From: Candidatus Staskawiczbacteria bacterium | GTDB lineage: Bacteria; Patescibacteriota; Minisyncoccia; Minisyncoccales; Staskawiczbacteraceae | Assembly: GCA_023245145.1 (NCBI GenBank) | Contig: JAHFKW010000002.1 | Span: 54,601 to 118,600, forward strand | Direction of reading: 5' to 3' | DNA: 64,000 nucleotides | Shown here: positions 47,488 through 59,397 of the stretch, one piece after another | How positions within the stretch are numbered: position 1 is the first letter of the stretch | Layout of the letters: each line of letters starts with the position of its first letter | Made by a program: the position numbers and the translations under genes | Notes under the pieces: model-generated | What the model saw: the letters and a program-made list of their open reading frames with translations, nothing else | Told to the model about the DNA's origin: nothing | Databases searched by the model: none

Positions 47488-47751
47488 GGTTTTTATTTTT
47501 AATAATATTTGACTGCGGGTAAACAAAAAGTCCACCACAGGTAGCGGCCGAAGCCGCCCATATAGGTTTCCCTATACGACCGAACAAACGGATCCCATGA
47601 TGGATTCTTTATGTTTGTTCGGATTTTTTACCATGCCCATAGAAAAACCCATGGGTTTAGGCAAACGATATTAAATTGTTGCTTGATTATAGCTTCTTTC
47701 GGGTTTCTTATCAACTCTTGTAAATCCTTACAATAAAATCATTCTGCACAT

Positions 47752-49130: not shown

Positions 49131-50873
49131 ATGAAAAAACAAGAAATCATAAAACTTGCGGGCTATTTTAGAAAGTCCTCTGAAGACAATGATCGTCAGA
49201 TTTTAAGTATTCCGGCACAAATTCCATGGGCTGAAAACCTAGTAGCGCGCCTCGGTCTAGAAATGCAAGAAATATTCAAAGAAGAACGCTCGGCAACGAC
49301 ACCCTACCGACGACCGGAATTTGACAACCTCGTCGCAAAAATCAGAAGTGGAACAATTAATGCGATTGTTTGCTGGAAACTTGACCGTCTCGCCCGTAAT
49401 CCCGAAGAAGCAGGTATTATTCTTGGCCTACTAAAGCGAGGAGAACTCAAGCGCATCATAACCAATGACCGCGAGTATCGTCCTGAAGACAATACTATTA
49501 TTTCTTACGTGGACTTCGGCATGGCTGATCAGTTTTCCCGTGATTTAAGTAAAAATGTAAAACGTGGTCTGTGGCAAAAAGCCAGCGCAGGTGAACGGCC
49601 GGGCGCCCTTCCTCTGGGCTACATTCAAAAACCGGGCATGGCTAGAGGTGAAGCAGTAAACATTCCCGATCCGGATCGATTTGAACTGGTAGAGCGCATG
49701 TTTCATCTTTTTTTAGCCGGCACCTACTCTGTCAGGGAATTGCAACGAGAAACAGTAAAATGGGGACTTAAAACTCGGCAAACCAAGCGACAAGGAGGTA
49801 AAGATGTTAGTATTTCCCAAATTTACAATATGCTGGGAGACCCATTTTATTGTCGCTTGTATTGGTGGATGAATAACGATACCGGAGAAATTGAACAGCG
49901 CATTGGCAATCACAAAGCGATGATTACCGAAGAAGAACACGAAATCATTTTAAGAAAACTGGGTAATAGAAGAAAATCAAGGCCAAAGAATAAAAACAAG
50001 CAACTCCCCTACCTTGGAAAAATGGAATGTGGAGAGTGTGGCTGTGCAGTTACCGGAGAAGATAAATACCAAATTATTTGCACCATTTGTAAAAGAAAAT
50101 CAGCGCTCACCGACAAAAGAAAAGATTGTCCGGGATGTAGCACAAAAATTGAAGAAATGAGAGAACCGAAAATTCTCCATTACATTTATTATCATTGCAC
50201 CAAGAGAAAAAATCGAAAATGCACTCAGTATTCGGTAACAGTGGGACAACTGGAAAAAATAGTTGATTCGGCTATTGAAGAATTCACACTCTCTGAAGCC
50301 TTCACGACATGGGCGCTGGAGGAACTCGAAAAAGATACTAATTACCAAATCAAAAGCCAAAACACCGTCATCAACTCGCAGCAAGAGCAATACAAGATCA
50401 CCGTCGCCTCACTCCAAAACCTTACGAAACTCTACACCTCACCCAAAAACGTGAATGGTGCGTTGCTTTCCATGGAAGAATACCAAACGCAACGAGAAGA
50501 ACTCCTTGCAGAAAAAAAGCGACTCGAGAAAGATCAACAAGTCACAGGACGCAAAATTGAAGAATGGATTGATTGGGCGACTAACTCTTTTGACTTTGCA
50601 ACAGCCGCAAGGGTTTGGTTTGAAAAGGGATCACCCCAACAGAAACGAGACATCTTCTTCTCGCTCTCCGGTTCGAACCTAATTTTGAAAGATGAAAAGC
50701 TAGGTATTTCCCTAAAGAAACCACTAGACTTCTATTCCGCCATCGCAATTGCTTACCCTTCAACAAAAATCAGGTTAGAACCTGAAAAAATGACCCAAAA
50801 TGAAGCTAAATACCTTCCTTTCGCGGCAGATATTCCACGCTTGCAGGGGAACTGGGAATCGAACCCAGGCTAA
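49131..50873 (+). CDS. large serine recombinase
   Basis: Resolvase catalytic domain (AGYFRKSSEDNDRQILSIPAQ, WKLDRLARN), a recombinase domain, Cys-rich zinc ribbon (CGECGCAVTGE...YYHCTKRKNRKC) and a coiled-coil tail; 580 aa. Confidence 0.85.
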   Translation: MKKQEIIKLAGYFRKSSEDNDRQILSIPAQIPWAENLVARLGLEMQEIFKEERSATTPYRRPEFDNLVAKIRSGTINAIVCWKLDRLARNPEEAGIILGLLKRGELKRIITNDREYRPEDNTIISYVDFGMADQFSRDLSKNVKRGLWQKASAGERPGALPLGYIQKPGMARGEAVNIPDPDRFELVERMFHLFLAGTYSVRELQRETVKWGLKTRQTKRQGGKDVSISQIYNMLGDPFYCRLYWWMNNDTGEIEQRIGNHKAMITEEEHEIILRKLGNRRKSRPKNKNKQLPYLGKMECGECGCAVTGEDKYQIICTICKRKSALTDKRKDCPGCSTKIEEMREPKILHYIYYHCTKRKNRKCTQYSVTVGQLEKIVDSAIEEFTLSEAFTTWALEELEKDTNYQIKSQNTVINSQQEQYKITVASLQNLTKLYTSPKNVNGALLSMEEYQTQREELLAEKKRLEKDQQVTGRKIEEWIDWATNSFDFATAARVWFEKGSPQQKRDIFFSLSGSNLILKDEKLGISLKKPLDFYSAIAIAYPSTKIRLEPEKMTQNEAKYLPFAADIPRLQGNWESNPG

Positions 50874-50914
50874 AGGTTTTGGAGACCTTTGTGATACCAC
50901 TTCACCATTCCCCT
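50844..50914 (-). tRNA. tRNA-Trp (anticodon CCA), no encoded CCA end
   Basis: Hand-drawn: AGGGGAA-TG-GTGA-AGTGGTA-TCAC-A-AAGGT-CTCCAAA-ACCTT-TAGC-CTGGG-TTCGATT-CCCAG-TTCCCCT-G. The 3' 30 nt overlap the recombinase ORF end in antisense. Confidence 0.85.
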
Positions 50915-58003: not shown

Positions 58004-58168
58004 CTAAGCCTTTTTGTTTTCCTTGTGCGGGGTGTGTTTTTTGCACGTATTGCAAAACTTAGACATCTCTAACTTATTATCCCCCATTGCTTTGGTTTTT
58101 TTGAGGAAATAGTTGAAGTTTTTGCACTTGGTACACTGAATTTTTAGAAATGGTTTTTTTGTGGCCAT
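58004..58168 (-). CDS. rpmG: 50S ribosomal protein L33
   Basis: Below the ORF-track cutoff. Hand translation gives MATKKPFLKIQCTKCKNFNYFLKKTKAMGDNKLEMSKFCNTCKKHTPHKENKKA (CxxC...CxxC L33 pattern). Confidence 0.85.
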   Translation of the reverse strand: MATKKPFLKIQCTKCKNFNYFLKKTKAMGDNKLEMSKFCNTCKKHTPHKENKKA

Positions 58169-58245
58169 GATTTTAGAAAATAGAAATTAGAAATATAGAA
58201 ACTAGAATATAAAAATACTAACACATTCTAATCAATAATGCAATG

Positions 58246-58496
58246 AGCCGATGGTGGGAATTGGACCCACGACCTTTTCCTTCGCCTATACCTCTTTTTT
58301 ATGTATTGAAGAGGGCTAGACTGTATCTTTTCGCCAGAGGCGAACCCTTGTCAGTCGTTCGGGCGCTGAATGCGCCACGGTCTTGGCCATTAAAGTGGCT
58401 ATTAACCGTAATTCGGGATTCATTACTAAATTGCTTTAATAATGGGCAGGCTTTGCGAGCCACCATGGAAATGCTCTACCACTGAGCTACATCGGC
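58246..58496 (-). tRNA. tRNA-Thr (anticodon GGT) interrupted by a 179-nt intron between nt 36 and 37
   Basis: Exon 1 (58496-58462) is GCCGATG-TA-GCTC-AGTGGTA-GAGC-A-TTTCC-ATGGT. Exon 2 (58282-58246) is AA-GGAAA-AGGTC-GTGGG-TCCAATT-CCCAC-CATCGGC-T. The acceptor and anticodon stems pair only across the insert. Confidence 0.8.
58283..58461 (-). ncRNA. group I intron (compact, no ORF)
   Basis: The 5' exon ends in U and the insert ends in G. P1-P9 can be drawn by hand, including a P2 GNRA (GCAA) hairpin, J3/4 GAAUU, J5/4 CAAGA, J8/7 AAAGAUA and P7 GACUG/CAGUC with a bulged C. See finding. Confidence 0.7.
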
Positions 58497-58500
58497 AAAC

Positions 58501-58580
58501 TAAGTTAAAGGTTATCAAGTTTTAAAGTTTATCAAGTCGACTTTATAACTTTTAACTTTATAACTTGAAACTTCACACTG
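58501..58580 (+). repeat. ~80-bp quasi-palindromic repeat element, copy 3 (between tRNA-Tyr and tRNA-Thr)
   Basis: taagttaaaggttatcaagttttaaagtttatcaagtcgactttataacttttaactttataacttgaaacttc. Confidence 0.8.
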
Positions 58581-58663
58581 TGGGCAGGATAGGACTTGCA
58601 CCTATGAAGGGGAAACCCCGCTAGATTTACAGTCTAGTGCCTTTGCTGCTCAGCCACCTGCCC
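58581..58663 (-). tRNA. tRNA-Tyr (anticodon GTA), long variable arm
   Basis: GGGCAGG...CTAGA-CTGTAAA-TCTAG-CGGGGTTTCCCCTTC-ATAGG-TGCAAGT-CCTAT-CCTGCCC-A; 83 nt. Confidence 0.85.
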
Positions 58664-58692: not shown

Positions 58693-59355
58693 TTATTCAA
58701 TCACCTTTCCGTGCCCCCCTTTCCACGCTTCAATTTTTTTGTGGTCGCCAGATAATAATACTTTTGGGACCCGCCAGTTTTTAAAAACTTCAGGGCGAGT
58801 ATATTGCGCATACTCAATGAATCCCCCGCTTTTGGTCACGCGCTCTTTTAGTAATTCTTTTTTCCCAATCACCCCTGGCACTAAACGCGAAATCGCTTCC
58901 ATACACACCATCGCCGGCAGTTCTCCACCCATCAAATCGTAATCGCCAATGGACAACTCCATGTCCGCAATTTTTTGTGCCACTCTTTCATCCACGCCCT
59001 CATAACGCCCACAAATAAAAATAATCTGGTCCAGCTTTGAAAGCTTATGCGCCATTTTTTGGTTGAACTTTTCACCGCGCGGAGTAAATAAAACAACTTT
59101 TCTTTTTTTACTTGATAACTTTAAACTTGATAACTTGATAACTGCTTTATGTATCGGCTCAACTTTTAACACCATCCCCAATCCCCCGCCAAACGGCCGA
59201 TCATCCACCGTGCCACGCTCGTCATCGGCAAAATCCCGTAAATTATGGGCATTAATTTTTATCAGTTTTAACTTTTGTGCGCGCGCAATCAAACTCTCGC
59301 TCAAATATGAGCTAAACATTTCAGGAAAAATAGTAATAATATCAAATTTAATCAT
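58693..59355 (-). CDS. trmD: tRNA (guanine37-N1)-methyltransferase (start trimmed to MIKFDIITIFPEMF)
   Basis: TrmD motifs (ITIFPEMF, GRYEGVDERV, SIGDYDLMGGELPAM). The longer track start would include the upstream terminator hairpin. Confidence 0.9.
   Translation of the reverse strand: MIKFDIITIFPEMFSSYLSESLIARAQKLKLIKINAHNLRDFADDERGTVDDRPFGGGLGMVLKVEPIHKAVIKLSSLKLSSKKRKVVLFTPRGEKFNQKMAHKLSKLDQIIFICGRYEGVDERVAQKIADMELSIGDYDLMGGELPAMVCMEAISRLVPGVIGKKELLKERVTKSGGFIEYAQYTRPEVFKNWRVPKVLLSGDHKKIEAWKGGHGKVIE
59111..59143. repeat. in-CDS copy of the cttgataac tandem motif (inside trmD)
   Basis: cttgataactttaaacttgataacttgataact, encoding AVIKLSSLKLSSKK. Confidence 0.75.
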
Positions 59356-59361
59356 ACTTTT

Positions 59362-59397
59362 TACAACAAAAAACTGCGGTAATAGTACCACAGTTTT
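59362..59397 (-). terminator. intrinsic terminator after the KH-domain gene
   Basis: Minus-strand stem aaaactgtgg / ccgcagtttt (one G.U pair) followed by a T-run. Confidence 0.65.

What the first reader, a model, noticed from the sequence alone, without database searches (positions are those of the whole stretch)
58246..58496. Compact 179-nt group I intron splitting the anticodon loop of tRNA-Thr(GGU)
The minus strand gives a complete tRNA-Thr cloverleaf only if 58283-58461 is removed, that is between nt 36 and 37. The insert obeys the group I rules: the 5' exon ends in U and the insert ends in G. I can draw all core pairings by hand (intron numbering):
- P1 pairs exon GGU with G15-C17 (U.G at the splice site) and is extended by GGCU/AGCC.
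- P2 is a 10-bp stem CAUUAUUAAA/UUUAGUAAUG closed by a GCAA GNRA loop.
- J3/4 is GAAUU, P4 is ACGG/CCGU, P5 is GCCA/UGGC and J5/4 is CAAGA.
- P6 is GGCGC/GCGCC.
- P7 is GACUG/CAGUC, with C105 bulged next to the G-C pair (the expected G-binding-site geometry).
- P3 is a CCC/GGG pseudoknot, though my hand-drawn P3 is short (3 GC pairs plus 2-3 more after a bulge).
- P8 is CGCC/GGCG.
- J8/7 is AAAGAUA followed by CAGUC (compare Tetrahymena AAGAUAUAGUC as I recall it).
- P9 is CCUCUU/AAGAGG.

Group I introns in bacterial tRNA anticodon loops are established for cyanobacteria and some proteobacteria (tRNA-Leu, -fMet, -Arg, and Azoarcus tRNA-Ile). One in tRNA-Thr of an AT-rich CPR-like genome would be new to me. 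It has no ORF and is shorter than the ~205-nt Azoarcus ribozyme as I remember it, so it could be a useful minimal ribozyme.
Basis: partly seen in the sequence, partly recalled or inferred. Interest (0 to 1): 0.85.

Follow-up and report, generated by a model that had tools for sequence, protein, structure and literature searches.

The report
Small self-splicing intron inside tRNA-Thr gene
A 179-base group I intron (a piece of RNA expected to cut itself out) interrupts the anticodon loop of the tRNA-Thr(GGU) gene of a Patescibacteria (CPR) bacterium; the call is correct and well supported, but this intron class was already reported in 2020-2026, so it is a new, unusually small example rather than a discovery.

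Summary
Removing window 58283-58461 (minus strand) gives a 72-nt tRNA-Thr(GGU). ARAGORN calls it only after removal, and it is identical to an intron-less gene at the same locus in a related genome. The insert sits between nt 36 and 37, follows U and ends in G.

More than 110 distinct relatives from genomes and metagenomes all split tRNA-Thr(GGU) at the same site. On an unfitted alignment, 93% of cells pair (31-46% when partners are slid). P3 and P4 vary by compensation only in phage-borne relatives. P7 is invariant. GNRA loop L2 co-varies with a receptor-like P8.

Rfam RF00028 does not hit the window, which is the published behaviour of this class. Nakagawa et al. 2026 list tRNA-Thr(GGU) 36/37 "divergent group I introns" in three complete Patescibacteria genomes, found only by tFind. 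Self-splicing of this class is still untested.

Verdict: a real group I intron and a new member of a known kind. Family members run 170-256 nt, so 179 nt is not the shortest. Interest is moderate to low, mainly as a candidate minimal ribozyme.

The parts
58462..58496 (-). 5' exon of tRNA-Thr(GGU): tRNA nt 1-36, ending ...CAUGGU. U36 is the -1 nucleotide.
   Evidence: ARAGORN on the joined exons. Identical to intron-less L003.
58283..58461 (-). 179-nt group I intron with no ORF. It is the only copy of this family in the window.
   Evidence: (198.5 bits with family model R1; single hit in 64 kb).
58246..58282 (-). 3' exon of tRNA-Thr(GGU): nt 37-73, AAGGAAA...CAUCGGCU. CCA is not encoded.
58445..58464 (-). 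P1. Exon G34-G35-U36 (58464-58462) pairs with guide G15-C16-C17 (58447-58445), with U36.G15 as the wobble. It is extended by intron 1-4 GGCU (58461-58458) with 10-13 AGCC (58452-58449).
   Evidence: UG in 101/103, GC in 101-102/103. The extension co-varies: GC/AU/GU/UA. Exon and guide co-vary across insertion sites in phage copies.
58421..58444 (-). P2, a 10-bp stem closed by GCAA (a GNRA loop, L2).
   Evidence: All 10 pairs show compensatory changes. L2 is GNRA in 108/113.
58415..58417 (-). P3 5' strand, C45-C47. It forms a pseudoknot with 58345-58347.
   Evidence: 99.4% paired, with only C->U changes in the tRNA clade. Compensatory in phage relatives: CUCC/GGAG, CACC/GGUG, CUUC/GAAG, UCGG/CCGA.
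58377..58409 (-). P4-J4/5-P5-J5/4-P4' domain: ACGGUU / AAUA / GCCA...UGGC / CAA / GACCGU.
   Evidence: P4 is 100% paired. Its first pair is AU 98 / UA 5. P5 co-varies at all 4 pairs. The UA->GC and UG->GU switches of the P4 extension are read from the phage rows, not counted.
58362..58376 (-). P6: GGCGC/GCGCC with loop AUUCA.
   Evidence: All 5 pairs have compensatory changes.
58352..58361 (-). J6/7 (CGAAC, with C105 bulged) plus the P7 5' strand GACUG. G106-C143 is the presumed guanosine-binding pair.
   Evidence: Invariant in 113 distinct tRNA-clade introns, although the last P7 pair was left free in the search pattern. Its function is inferred.
58345..58347 (-). P3 3' strand, G115-G117. It is preceded by J7/3 ACAA and followed directly by P8.
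58330..58344 (-). P8: UUCGCC / UCU / GGCGAA.
   Evidence: The first three pairs each show all four Watson-Crick types. P8 type co-varies with L2 type.
58319..58329 (-). J8/7 AAGAUA plus the P7 3' strand CAGUC.
   Evidence: Conserved. Matches the RF00028 consensus AAGAUAuAGUC in the homologue alignment.
58283..58316 (-). P9.0 (G146-C178, C147-G177), enclosing P9 (CCUCUU/AAGAGG with a 12-nt loop) and ending at the terminal G179 (58283).
   Evidence: P9.0 second pair: CG 71 / UA 21 / UG 8. Five of six P9 pairs have compensatory changes.

Best explanation
Window 58246-58496 (minus strand) is the tRNA-Thr(GGU) gene of a Patescibacteria bacterium close to Candidatus Staskawiczbacteria. A 179-nt ORF-less group I intron interrupts it between anticodon-loop nt 36 and 37.

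Likely mechanism; the steps are inferred from the established group I pathway and none were shown here:

1. The pre-tRNA is transcribed.
2. Exon G34-G35-U36 pairs with the intron guide G15-C16-C17 to form P1, with the U36.G15 wobble marking the 5' splice site.
3. A free guanosine bound at the G106-C143 pair of P7 attacks after U36.
4. The 2-bp P9.0 then places the terminal G179 in the same pocket.
5. The 3'-OH of U36 attacks after G179, joining the exons into the loop A-U-G-G-U-A-A.
6. The 5-bp anticodon stem (UUUCC/GGAAA) holds the exons together, probably in place of a strong P10.

The fold is a minimal core: P1, P2, the 3-bp P3 pseudoknot, P4-P6, P7, P8, P9.0 and P9. Docking of the L2 GNRA loop onto P8 probably braces it. 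The intron belongs to the already reported class of 'divergent' tRNA-Thr(GGU) 36/37 introns of Patescibacteria.
For: - **Exact excision restores a tRNA.** ARAGORN calls tRNA-Thr(ggt) only after removal. The joined exons equal the intron-less L003 gene, 72/72.
- **Matched alleles in sister genomes.** Three more intron+/intron- pairs have identical or near-identical exons: L013/L011 72/72, L010/L004 71/73 with a compensatory stem change, and L018/L012 71/72.
- **Patchy distribution.** Among Staskawiczbacteria-like loci with conserved trmD / tRNA-Tyr / tRNA-Thr order, 4 carry the intron and 11 lack it.
- **Large family.** 124 inserts in all could be bounded, and 119 of their joined exons are called tRNA-Thr(ggt).
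- **Covariation on an unfitted MAFFT alignment.** 93.0% of cells pair, against 31-46% when partners are slid. 32 pairs have compensatory changes. The score is 0.461 against 0.108 or less, and 0 of 500 shuffles reach it.
- **Covariation on 103 model-aligned sequences.** 94.2% paired, 41 pairs and 1096 cells with double changes.
- **Unguided consensus.** RNAalifold finds the same helices without my input.
- **Group I hallmarks.** U.G at the splice site in 101/103. P9.0 co-varies CG/UA. J8/7-P7 reads AAGAUACAGUC.
- **P3 and P4.** P3 is a standard pair in all 156 distinct sequences, with 14 compensatory variants. The first P4 pair switches A-U to U-A.
- **Guide and exon co-vary with the insertion site in phage copies.** GGU/GCC, GCU/GGC, GAU/GUC and CCGU/GCGG. 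Removing three copies from a phage gene restores a 443-aa major-head-protein ORF.
- **Tertiary contact.** L2 = GAAA goes with a receptor-like P8: 25/48 against 3/65, Fisher p = 5e-9, not corrected for relatedness.
- **Rfam on a homologue.** L010:4058-4240 scores 23.9 bits, E=7e-4 with RF00028.
- **Literature.** PMC13011429 Table 1 lists tRNA-Thr(GGU) 36/37 introns in three complete Patescibacteria genomes. RF00028 misses them, tFind's gpI_bact_tRNA model finds them, and they fall in the IA part of the authors' tree of bacterial tRNA introns.
Against: - RF00028 gives no hit on the window, even at E<=10.
- No splicing assay or RNA data exist for this intron or its class. The 2026 paper tested only Asn and Asp 35/36 introns.
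- P7 never varies within the family, so only an outgroup comparison supports it.
- P3 is only 3 bp here, which is short for a group I core.
- P10 is weak or absent.
- I could not scan the rest of the genome for a second, intact tRNA-Thr(GGU).
- Such a stripped-down core may need a protein or high Mg2+ to fold.
Confidence: 0.88

Rival explanations
1. It is a group I-derived intron that no longer self-splices and depends on a host or phage protein cofactor, or splices only in vivo.
For: - The core is minimal: a 3-bp P3, a 4-6-bp P8, and no GNRA loop in L9.
- RF00028 does not recognise it.
- No assay exists for this class.
Against: - All catalytic-core junctions (J3/4, J4/5, J6/7, J8/7), P7 and P9.0 are conserved or co-vary across more than 110 sequences in varied genomic contexts and in phages.
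- The L2-P8 contact looks maintained.
- Small bacterial tRNA introns generally self-splice (PMC13011429).
Confidence: 0.08
2. The locus is a dead tRNA gene disrupted by an inactive intron relic, and a functional tRNA-Thr(GGU) lies elsewhere.
For: - Only 64 kb of the genome is visible.
- ARAGORN finds just three other tRNAs there, none of them Thr.
Against: - The exons are 72/72 identical to a working intron-less gene in a genome whose TrmD is only about 71% identical.
- The intron keeps compensatory pairing, which means selection on its structure.
- This is the normal site of tRNA-Thr(GGU) in relatives.
Confidence: 0.03
3. The insert is not an intron but another kind of insertion (a small mobile element or a mis-assembly) that happens to fold well.
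For: Neither ARAGORN nor Rfam gives a database call for the window.
Against: - The same sequence appears on independent contigs from several samples.
- Every bounded tRNA-borne copy (121, 114 distinct) sits at exactly the same site in a tRNA-Thr(GGU) gene, with a U before it and a G at its end.
- The pseudoknotted group I architecture co-varies.
Confidence: 0.01

Closest known systems
'Divergent' group I introns at 36/37 of tRNA-Thr(GGU) in Patescibacteria (Nakagawa et al. 2026, mSystems, PMC13011429; detected by tFind, Williams 2020, bioRxiv 10.1101/2020.01.27.920355)
   Same: - Same host gene, anticodon and insertion site.
- Same phylum. Two of the three published genomes are Paceibacteria; the GTDB class of this genome was not looked up.
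- Same behaviour with tools: missed by RF00028 and, in two of the three published genomes, miscalled by ARAGORN.
   Different: - The published work reports three instances from complete genomes, without a structure, covariation analysis or splicing test for this class.
- Its survey gives 184 nt as the shortest bacterial tRNA intron. This copy is 179 nt and relatives reach 170 nt.
- I could not compare sequences directly, because the Thr intron sequences are not in the held supplement.
Azoarcus sp. BH72 pre-tRNA-Ile(CAU) group I intron (subgroup IC3, about 205 nt; recalled from memory, and listed as Ile2.5Ug in Williams 2020)
   Same: - Inserted after the third anticodon nucleotide (36/37).
- Only 3 exon nucleotides in P1, with a U.G wobble.
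- No ORF and a compact P2-P9 architecture.
- An L2 tetraloop docking on P8 (recalled for Azoarcus; inferred here).
   Different: - About 25 nt shorter.
- P3 is only 3 bp.
- L9 is not a GNRA loop.
- The core sequence is different enough that RF00028 fails.
- The 2026 paper places the class with IA rather than IC introns.
[quoted passage not shown]
   Same: - Same phylum and the same anticodon-loop setting, with a U before the intron and a G at its end.
- They group with the Thr introns in the published tree with high bootstrap support.
   Different: - Different insertion site and host tRNAs.
- Detected by RF00028.
- Longer, and some carry HNH endonuclease genes.
- P7 is GACUA/UAGUC, as in the RF00028-positive intron next door in L010, against GACUG/CAGUC here.
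Multiple group I introns in single phage structural genes (for example the three introns of Staphylococcus phage Twort orf142; recalled from memory)
   Same: Phage relatives of this family interrupt a major-head-protein gene three times.
   Different: This concerns the phage relatives, not the window locus. The phage hosts are unknown.

Membership tests
Group I intron | The 5' splice site follows a U that forms a U.G wobble with an internal guide sequence in P1. | tested here: met
   U36.G15 in the window. UG in 27/28 and 101/103. Exon and guide co-vary across insertion sites in phage copies.
Group I intron | The intron ends in a conserved G (omega-G). | tested here: met
   With the junction fixed by intron-less alleles, G179 is the last intron base. 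Relatives end in ...RCG|AA, but my boundary search required a G there, so only the window and the four genome loci are independent evidence.
Group I intron | A conserved core with P4-P6 and P3-P8 stacks joined by the P3/P7 pseudoknot. | tested here: met
   All helices are present. P5, P6 and P8 co-vary strongly. P3 and P4 co-vary in phage relatives. P7 is invariant within the family and differs by one compensatory pair from an RF00028-positive outgroup.
Group I intron | A guanosine-binding G-C pair in P7 next to a bulged nucleotide. | tested here: inconclusive
   The sequence fits: A104-U144, bulged C105, G106-C143. It is invariant in 113 introns. The geometry is compared from memory, and binding cannot be tested here.
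Group I intron | P9.0 pairing just upstream of omega-G. | tested here: met
   G146-C178 and C147-G177. The second pair is CG 71 / UA 21 / UG 8.
Group I intron | Match to Rfam Intron_gpI (RF00028) at its gathering score. | tested here: not met
   No hit at gathering or at E<=10. The homologue L010:4058-4240 reaches 23.9 bits against a cut-off of 50. The model has no bacterial seed sequences and is reported to miss this class, so this is a weak test.
Group I intron | Guanosine- and Mg2+-dependent self-splicing. | not testable with these tools
Patescibacteria tRNA-Thr(GGU) 36/37 divergent group I introns (PMC13011429) | Host gene tRNA-Thr(GGU), with the insertion between nt 36 and 37. | tested here: met
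Patescibacteria tRNA-Thr(GGU) 36/37 divergent group I introns (PMC13011429) | The host is a member of Patescibacteria. | tested here: met
   The flanking TrmD is 63-82% identical to proteins of Candidatus Staskawiczbacteria and other Patescibacteria MAGs, with the same gene order.
Patescibacteria tRNA-Thr(GGU) 36/37 divergent group I introns (PMC13011429) | Sequence homology to the three published introns, or a hit by tFind's gpI_bact_tRNA model. | not tested
Group I subgroup (IA or IC3) | Best match to a subgroup covariance model, and presence or absence of P7.1/P7.2. | not testable with these tools
   No subgroup models are available. By inspection only ACAA separates P7 from P3', so there is no P7.1/P7.2. 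That looks IC3-like, whereas the literature places the class in the IA part of its tree.

The most novel reading that the evidence does not exclude
This clade may be a distinct, structurally uncharacterised subgroup of group I introns. It would hold the smallest natural self-splicing examples (170-180 nt, with a 3-bp P3, a hairpin-sized P8 and no peripheral domains). It may move between phage structural genes and the tRNA-Thr(GGU) genes of CPR bacteria by reverse splicing at short GGU-type target sites. If so, it would offer a new minimal model ribozyme.
Probability: 0.3. Interest if true: 0.55.

Novelty: new member of a known kind. Interest (0 to 1): 0.3.

Why it matters
- **Annotation.** Neither ARAGORN nor Rfam calls this tRNA, so the genome would look as if it lacked tRNA-Thr(GGU). 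Gene callers put a spurious 80-aa ORF across the intron. Both errors affect completeness estimates for CPR genomes.
- **Ribozyme biology.** The family shows how far a group I core can be trimmed, down to 170-180 nt, while still under clear structural selection. With more than 110 natural variants, it is a ready data set for designing and testing a minimal ribozyme.
- **Evolution.** The same core occurs in phage capsid genes with guide sequences matched to each insertion site. This links CPR tRNA introns to a phage-borne pool.

None of this changes the basic picture already published in 2020-2026.

Tried and rejected
- **Rfam on the whole window at gathering, and on 58150-58600 at E<=10.** No RF00028 hit, only a 13.8-bit half-tRNA. 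I did not treat this as refuting, for the reasons given in the report.
- **Rfam at E<=1 on L010 plus three phage loci together.** Nothing was found because of the larger search space. A narrow rerun on L010 gave the informative hits.
- **ARAGORN on the unspliced locus.** Nothing found.
- **Published Thr intron sequences.** I looked in the supplement of PMC13011429, but they are not held or the file is cut.
- **Literature statement on the smallest natural group I intron.** Two searches and three papers were uninformative. Only the 184-894 nt range of PMC13011429 is used; the Azoarcus length is from memory.
- **First splice-site finder.** A generic finder (any anticodon) was too permissive. I replaced it with a GGT-specific one checked by ARAGORN.
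- **Longer P3.** AAUCC/GGGUU fits the window but fails in homologues, where the bases after GGG belong to P8. Rejected.
- **MFE pairing of the guide G15-C17 with G176-C178.** Rejected in favour of P9.0, which co-varies.
- **P10.** By eye, no consistent complement between the bases 5' of the guide and the 3' exon across homologues. Not counted formally.

Full report
**1. The observation**

On the minus strand, 58496-58462 and 58282-58246 are the two halves of a tRNA, separated by 179 nt.

- ARAGORN lists only tRNA-Glu, tRNA-Trp and tRNA-Tyr in the window and finds nothing in the unspliced locus. After 58283-58461 is deleted, it calls tRNA-Thr(ggt) with a regular cloverleaf and the anticodon loop A-U-G-G-U-A-A.
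- Shifting the deleted block by even one base destroys the ...CCATGGTAAGGAAA... junction. The insert therefore sits uniquely between nt 36 and 37, after a U, and ends in G.

**2. Context and organism**

The gene lies between tRNA-Tyr (58580-58663) and rpmG, which encodes ribosomal protein L33 (58004-58168). trmD lies just upstream (58693-59391). TrmD's closest relatives, at 63-82% identity, come from Candidatus Staskawiczbacteria and other Patescibacteria MAGs.

**3. Intron-less and intron-containing alleles**

In species-representative genomes with the same trmD / tRNA-Tyr / tRNA-Thr order, eleven loci have an uninterrupted tRNA-Thr(GGU): L003-L009, L011, L012, L014 and L015. Four carry a homologous insert at the same position: L002, L010, L013 and L018.

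- The window's joined exons are identical, 72 of 72, to the L003 gene, even though the two TrmD proteins are only about 71% identical.
- L013 against L011 is 72/72. L010 against L004 differs by one compensatory anticodon-stem pair. L018 against L012 is 71/72.

This is the presence/absence pattern expected of an intron in a functional gene. It argues against a dead tRNA.

**4. The family**

- 124 inserts could be bounded. 119 of the joined products are called tRNA-Thr(ggt) by ARAGORN.
- Intron length runs 170-256 nt, median 195, with 114 distinct tRNA-borne sequences.
- The window's 179 nt is therefore small but not the minimum.
- A covariance model built from 28 of them finds exactly one copy in the 64-kb window, at 58277-58467 (198.5 bits).

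**5. Structure and covariation**

I projected a hand structure onto a plain MAFFT alignment of 28 diverse members, which was not fitted to any structure.

| Measure | Structure as drawn | Control |
|---|---|---|
| Cells forming a standard pair | 93.0% | 31-46% (partners slid by 1-3 columns) |
| Pairs with a change on both sides | 32 | 13-23 (slid) |
| Covariation score | 0.461 | 0.108 or less (slid) |
| Shuffles reaching the observed values | 0 of 500 | n/a |

RNAalifold, given only the alignment, predicts the same P1, P2, P4/P5, P6, P7, P8 and P9. On 103 model-aligned sequences, 94.2% of cells pair, with 41 pairs and 1096 cells showing double changes.

By helix (unless stated):

- **P1.** The exon-guide pairs are essentially fixed: GC, GC, and UG in 101/103. 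The P1 extension co-varies.
- **P2.** All ten pairs co-vary.
- **P5, P6, P8, P9.** These co-vary strongly. The first three P8 pairs each show all four Watson-Crick types.
- **P9.0.** Its second pair is CG 71, UA 21, UG 8.
- **P3.** In the tRNA clade it is only CCC/GGG, with occasional C-to-U changes that keep a G.U pair.
- **P4 and P7.** Both are invariant in the tRNA clade. P7 is invariant even though the search pattern left its last pair free.

**6. The invariant core, tested on more distant relatives**

Two further scans of viral contigs recovered several dozen phage-borne relatives.

- **P3.** Across 156 distinct sequences the three P3 pairs are always standard pairs. Fourteen sequences carry compensatory variants: CUCC/GGAG, CACC/GGUG, CUUC/GAAG, CCUC/GAGG, UCGG/CCGA and UCUC/GAGG.
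- **P4.** The first pair switches A-U to U-A. Read by eye from the phage rows of the alignment, its extension switches U-A/U.G to G-C/G.U.
- **P7.** It stays GACUG/CAGUC throughout. The only comparison is with a canonical intron in the tRNA-Tyr gene next door in L010. That intron has GACUA/UAGUC and is RF00028-positive at 52.2 bits.
- **Independent check of splicing.** In phage contig L083, three copies interrupt one gene. Removing them at U|...G| boundaries restores a 443-aa ORF with a weak major-head-protein match that spans the first two junctions.
- **Guide sequences.** Across these phage copies the guide co-varies with the exon it follows: GGU/GCC, GCU/GGC, GAU/GUC and CCGU/GCGG. This is characteristic of group I introns.

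**7. A tertiary contact**

L2 is a GNRA tetraloop in 108 of 113 distinct introns. When L2 is GAAA, P8 usually carries an asymmetric CUA(A/C)G...AUG motif resembling the 11-nt receptor (recalled from memory). When L2 is GYRA, as in the window's GCAA, P8 is a plain G-C-rich hairpin. The split is 25/48 against 3/65, Fisher p = 5e-9, not corrected for relatedness. This suggests L2 docks on P8, as recalled for the Azoarcus intron. It is an inference.

**8. Rfam**

RF00028 gives nothing on the window, even at E<=10. I do not accept it as such, for three reasons:

- None of the model's twelve seed sequences is bacterial.
- The literature states that it fails on exactly these introns.
- A close homologue of the window intron, L010:4058-4240, reaches 23.9 bits (E = 7e-4 in a 701-nt search), anchored on J8/7-P7.

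**9. What is known**

Nakagawa et al. 2026 (PMC13011429) list tRNA-Thr(GGU) introns at 36/37 in three complete Patescibacteria genomes.

- RF00028 misses them, ARAGORN miscalls two of the three, and tFind's bacterial tRNA-intron model finds them.
- The authors call them 'divergent group I introns'. In their tree of bacterial tRNA introns, these fall in the IA part, on long branches next to the Asn and Asp introns.
- Only the Asn and Asp 35/36 introns were tested for splicing.
- Their survey of 333 bacterial tRNA introns gives a length range of 184-894 nt.
- Williams 2020 introduced the tFind model and raised the known interrupted tRNA types from 4 to 21.

The kind is therefore published. The window holds a further member. 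The additions here are the secondary structure with covariation support, P9.0, the L2/P8 relationship, lengths down to 170 nt and the phage relatives.

**10. Mechanism**

The steps are given under Best explanation. What is shown:

- the exon junction;
- the helices and their covariation;
- the conserved junction sequences.

What is inferred from the established group I pathway:

- guanosine attack after U36;
- exchange of the terminal G179 into the P7 pocket with the help of P9.0;
- exon ligation assisted by the anticodon stem.

**11. Verdict**

Novelty is limited: this is a new member of a known kind. My confidence is 0.88 that it is a functional group I intron of the published class. The main residual doubt is whether so small a core splices without help.

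Noticed in passing
window 47543-47663 (-): Full-length match to the LOOT RNA family (RF03000): 94 bits against a gathering score of 46.4.
   Followed up: no
window 49131-50873 (+), overlapping tRNA-Trp 50843-50914 (-): A 580-aa large serine recombinase (Resolvase and Recombinase domains). Its 3' end overlaps the tRNA-Trp gene on the other strand. This may be an integrated element at a tRNA gene.
   Followed up: partly
window 58246-58282 (-); also L003, L005, L011, L013, L014, and L004/L010: The T-loop of this tRNA-Thr reads UCCAAUU, with C where the near-universal U55 normally sits. Several relatives share it. L004 and L010 instead have UGCAAAU together with a D-loop lacking the usual GG.
   Followed up: no
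L010 3673-3949 and 4058-4260: In this Staskawiczbacteria MAG the neighbouring tRNA-Tyr(GUA) also appears split (...GACTGT|, read by eye as 35/36). The intron there is canonical and RF00028-positive at 52.2 bits. Two intron-bearing tRNA genes therefore lie in tandem, and ARAGORN sees neither.
   Followed up: partly
L083 6280-6469, 6746-6935, 7569-7752 (same in L085 and L089): Three copies of the same compact intron family interrupt one phage gene. Removing them gives a 443-aa ORF with a weak major-head-protein match (phrog_9953, E=1e-5). The 5' exons end in GCU, GGU and GGU, each matched by the guide sequence.
   Followed up: partly
L209-L277 (IMG/VR contigs): Several dozen viral contigs carry relatives of this intron core. 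In L242 a separate 5'-half hit lies about 0.7 kb upstream of the core, so an ORF may be inserted there. L244, L249, L268 and L276 look similar. Neither the insert size nor any ORF was checked.
   Followed up: no
window 58243-58485 (+); L001 995-1237: An 80-aa ORF on the opposite strand spans the intron. It is called as a gene on the public ENA contig but has no Pfam match, so it is almost certainly a gene-calling artefact.
   Followed up: yes
L086-L205: The intron-bearing tRNA-Thr(GGU) sits in varied contexts. Upstream neighbours within 450 nt include tRNA-Asp, tRNA-Tyr, tRNA-Thr(CGU/UGU) or no tRNA at all. The family is therefore spread over many lineages, not one operon type.
   Followed up: partly
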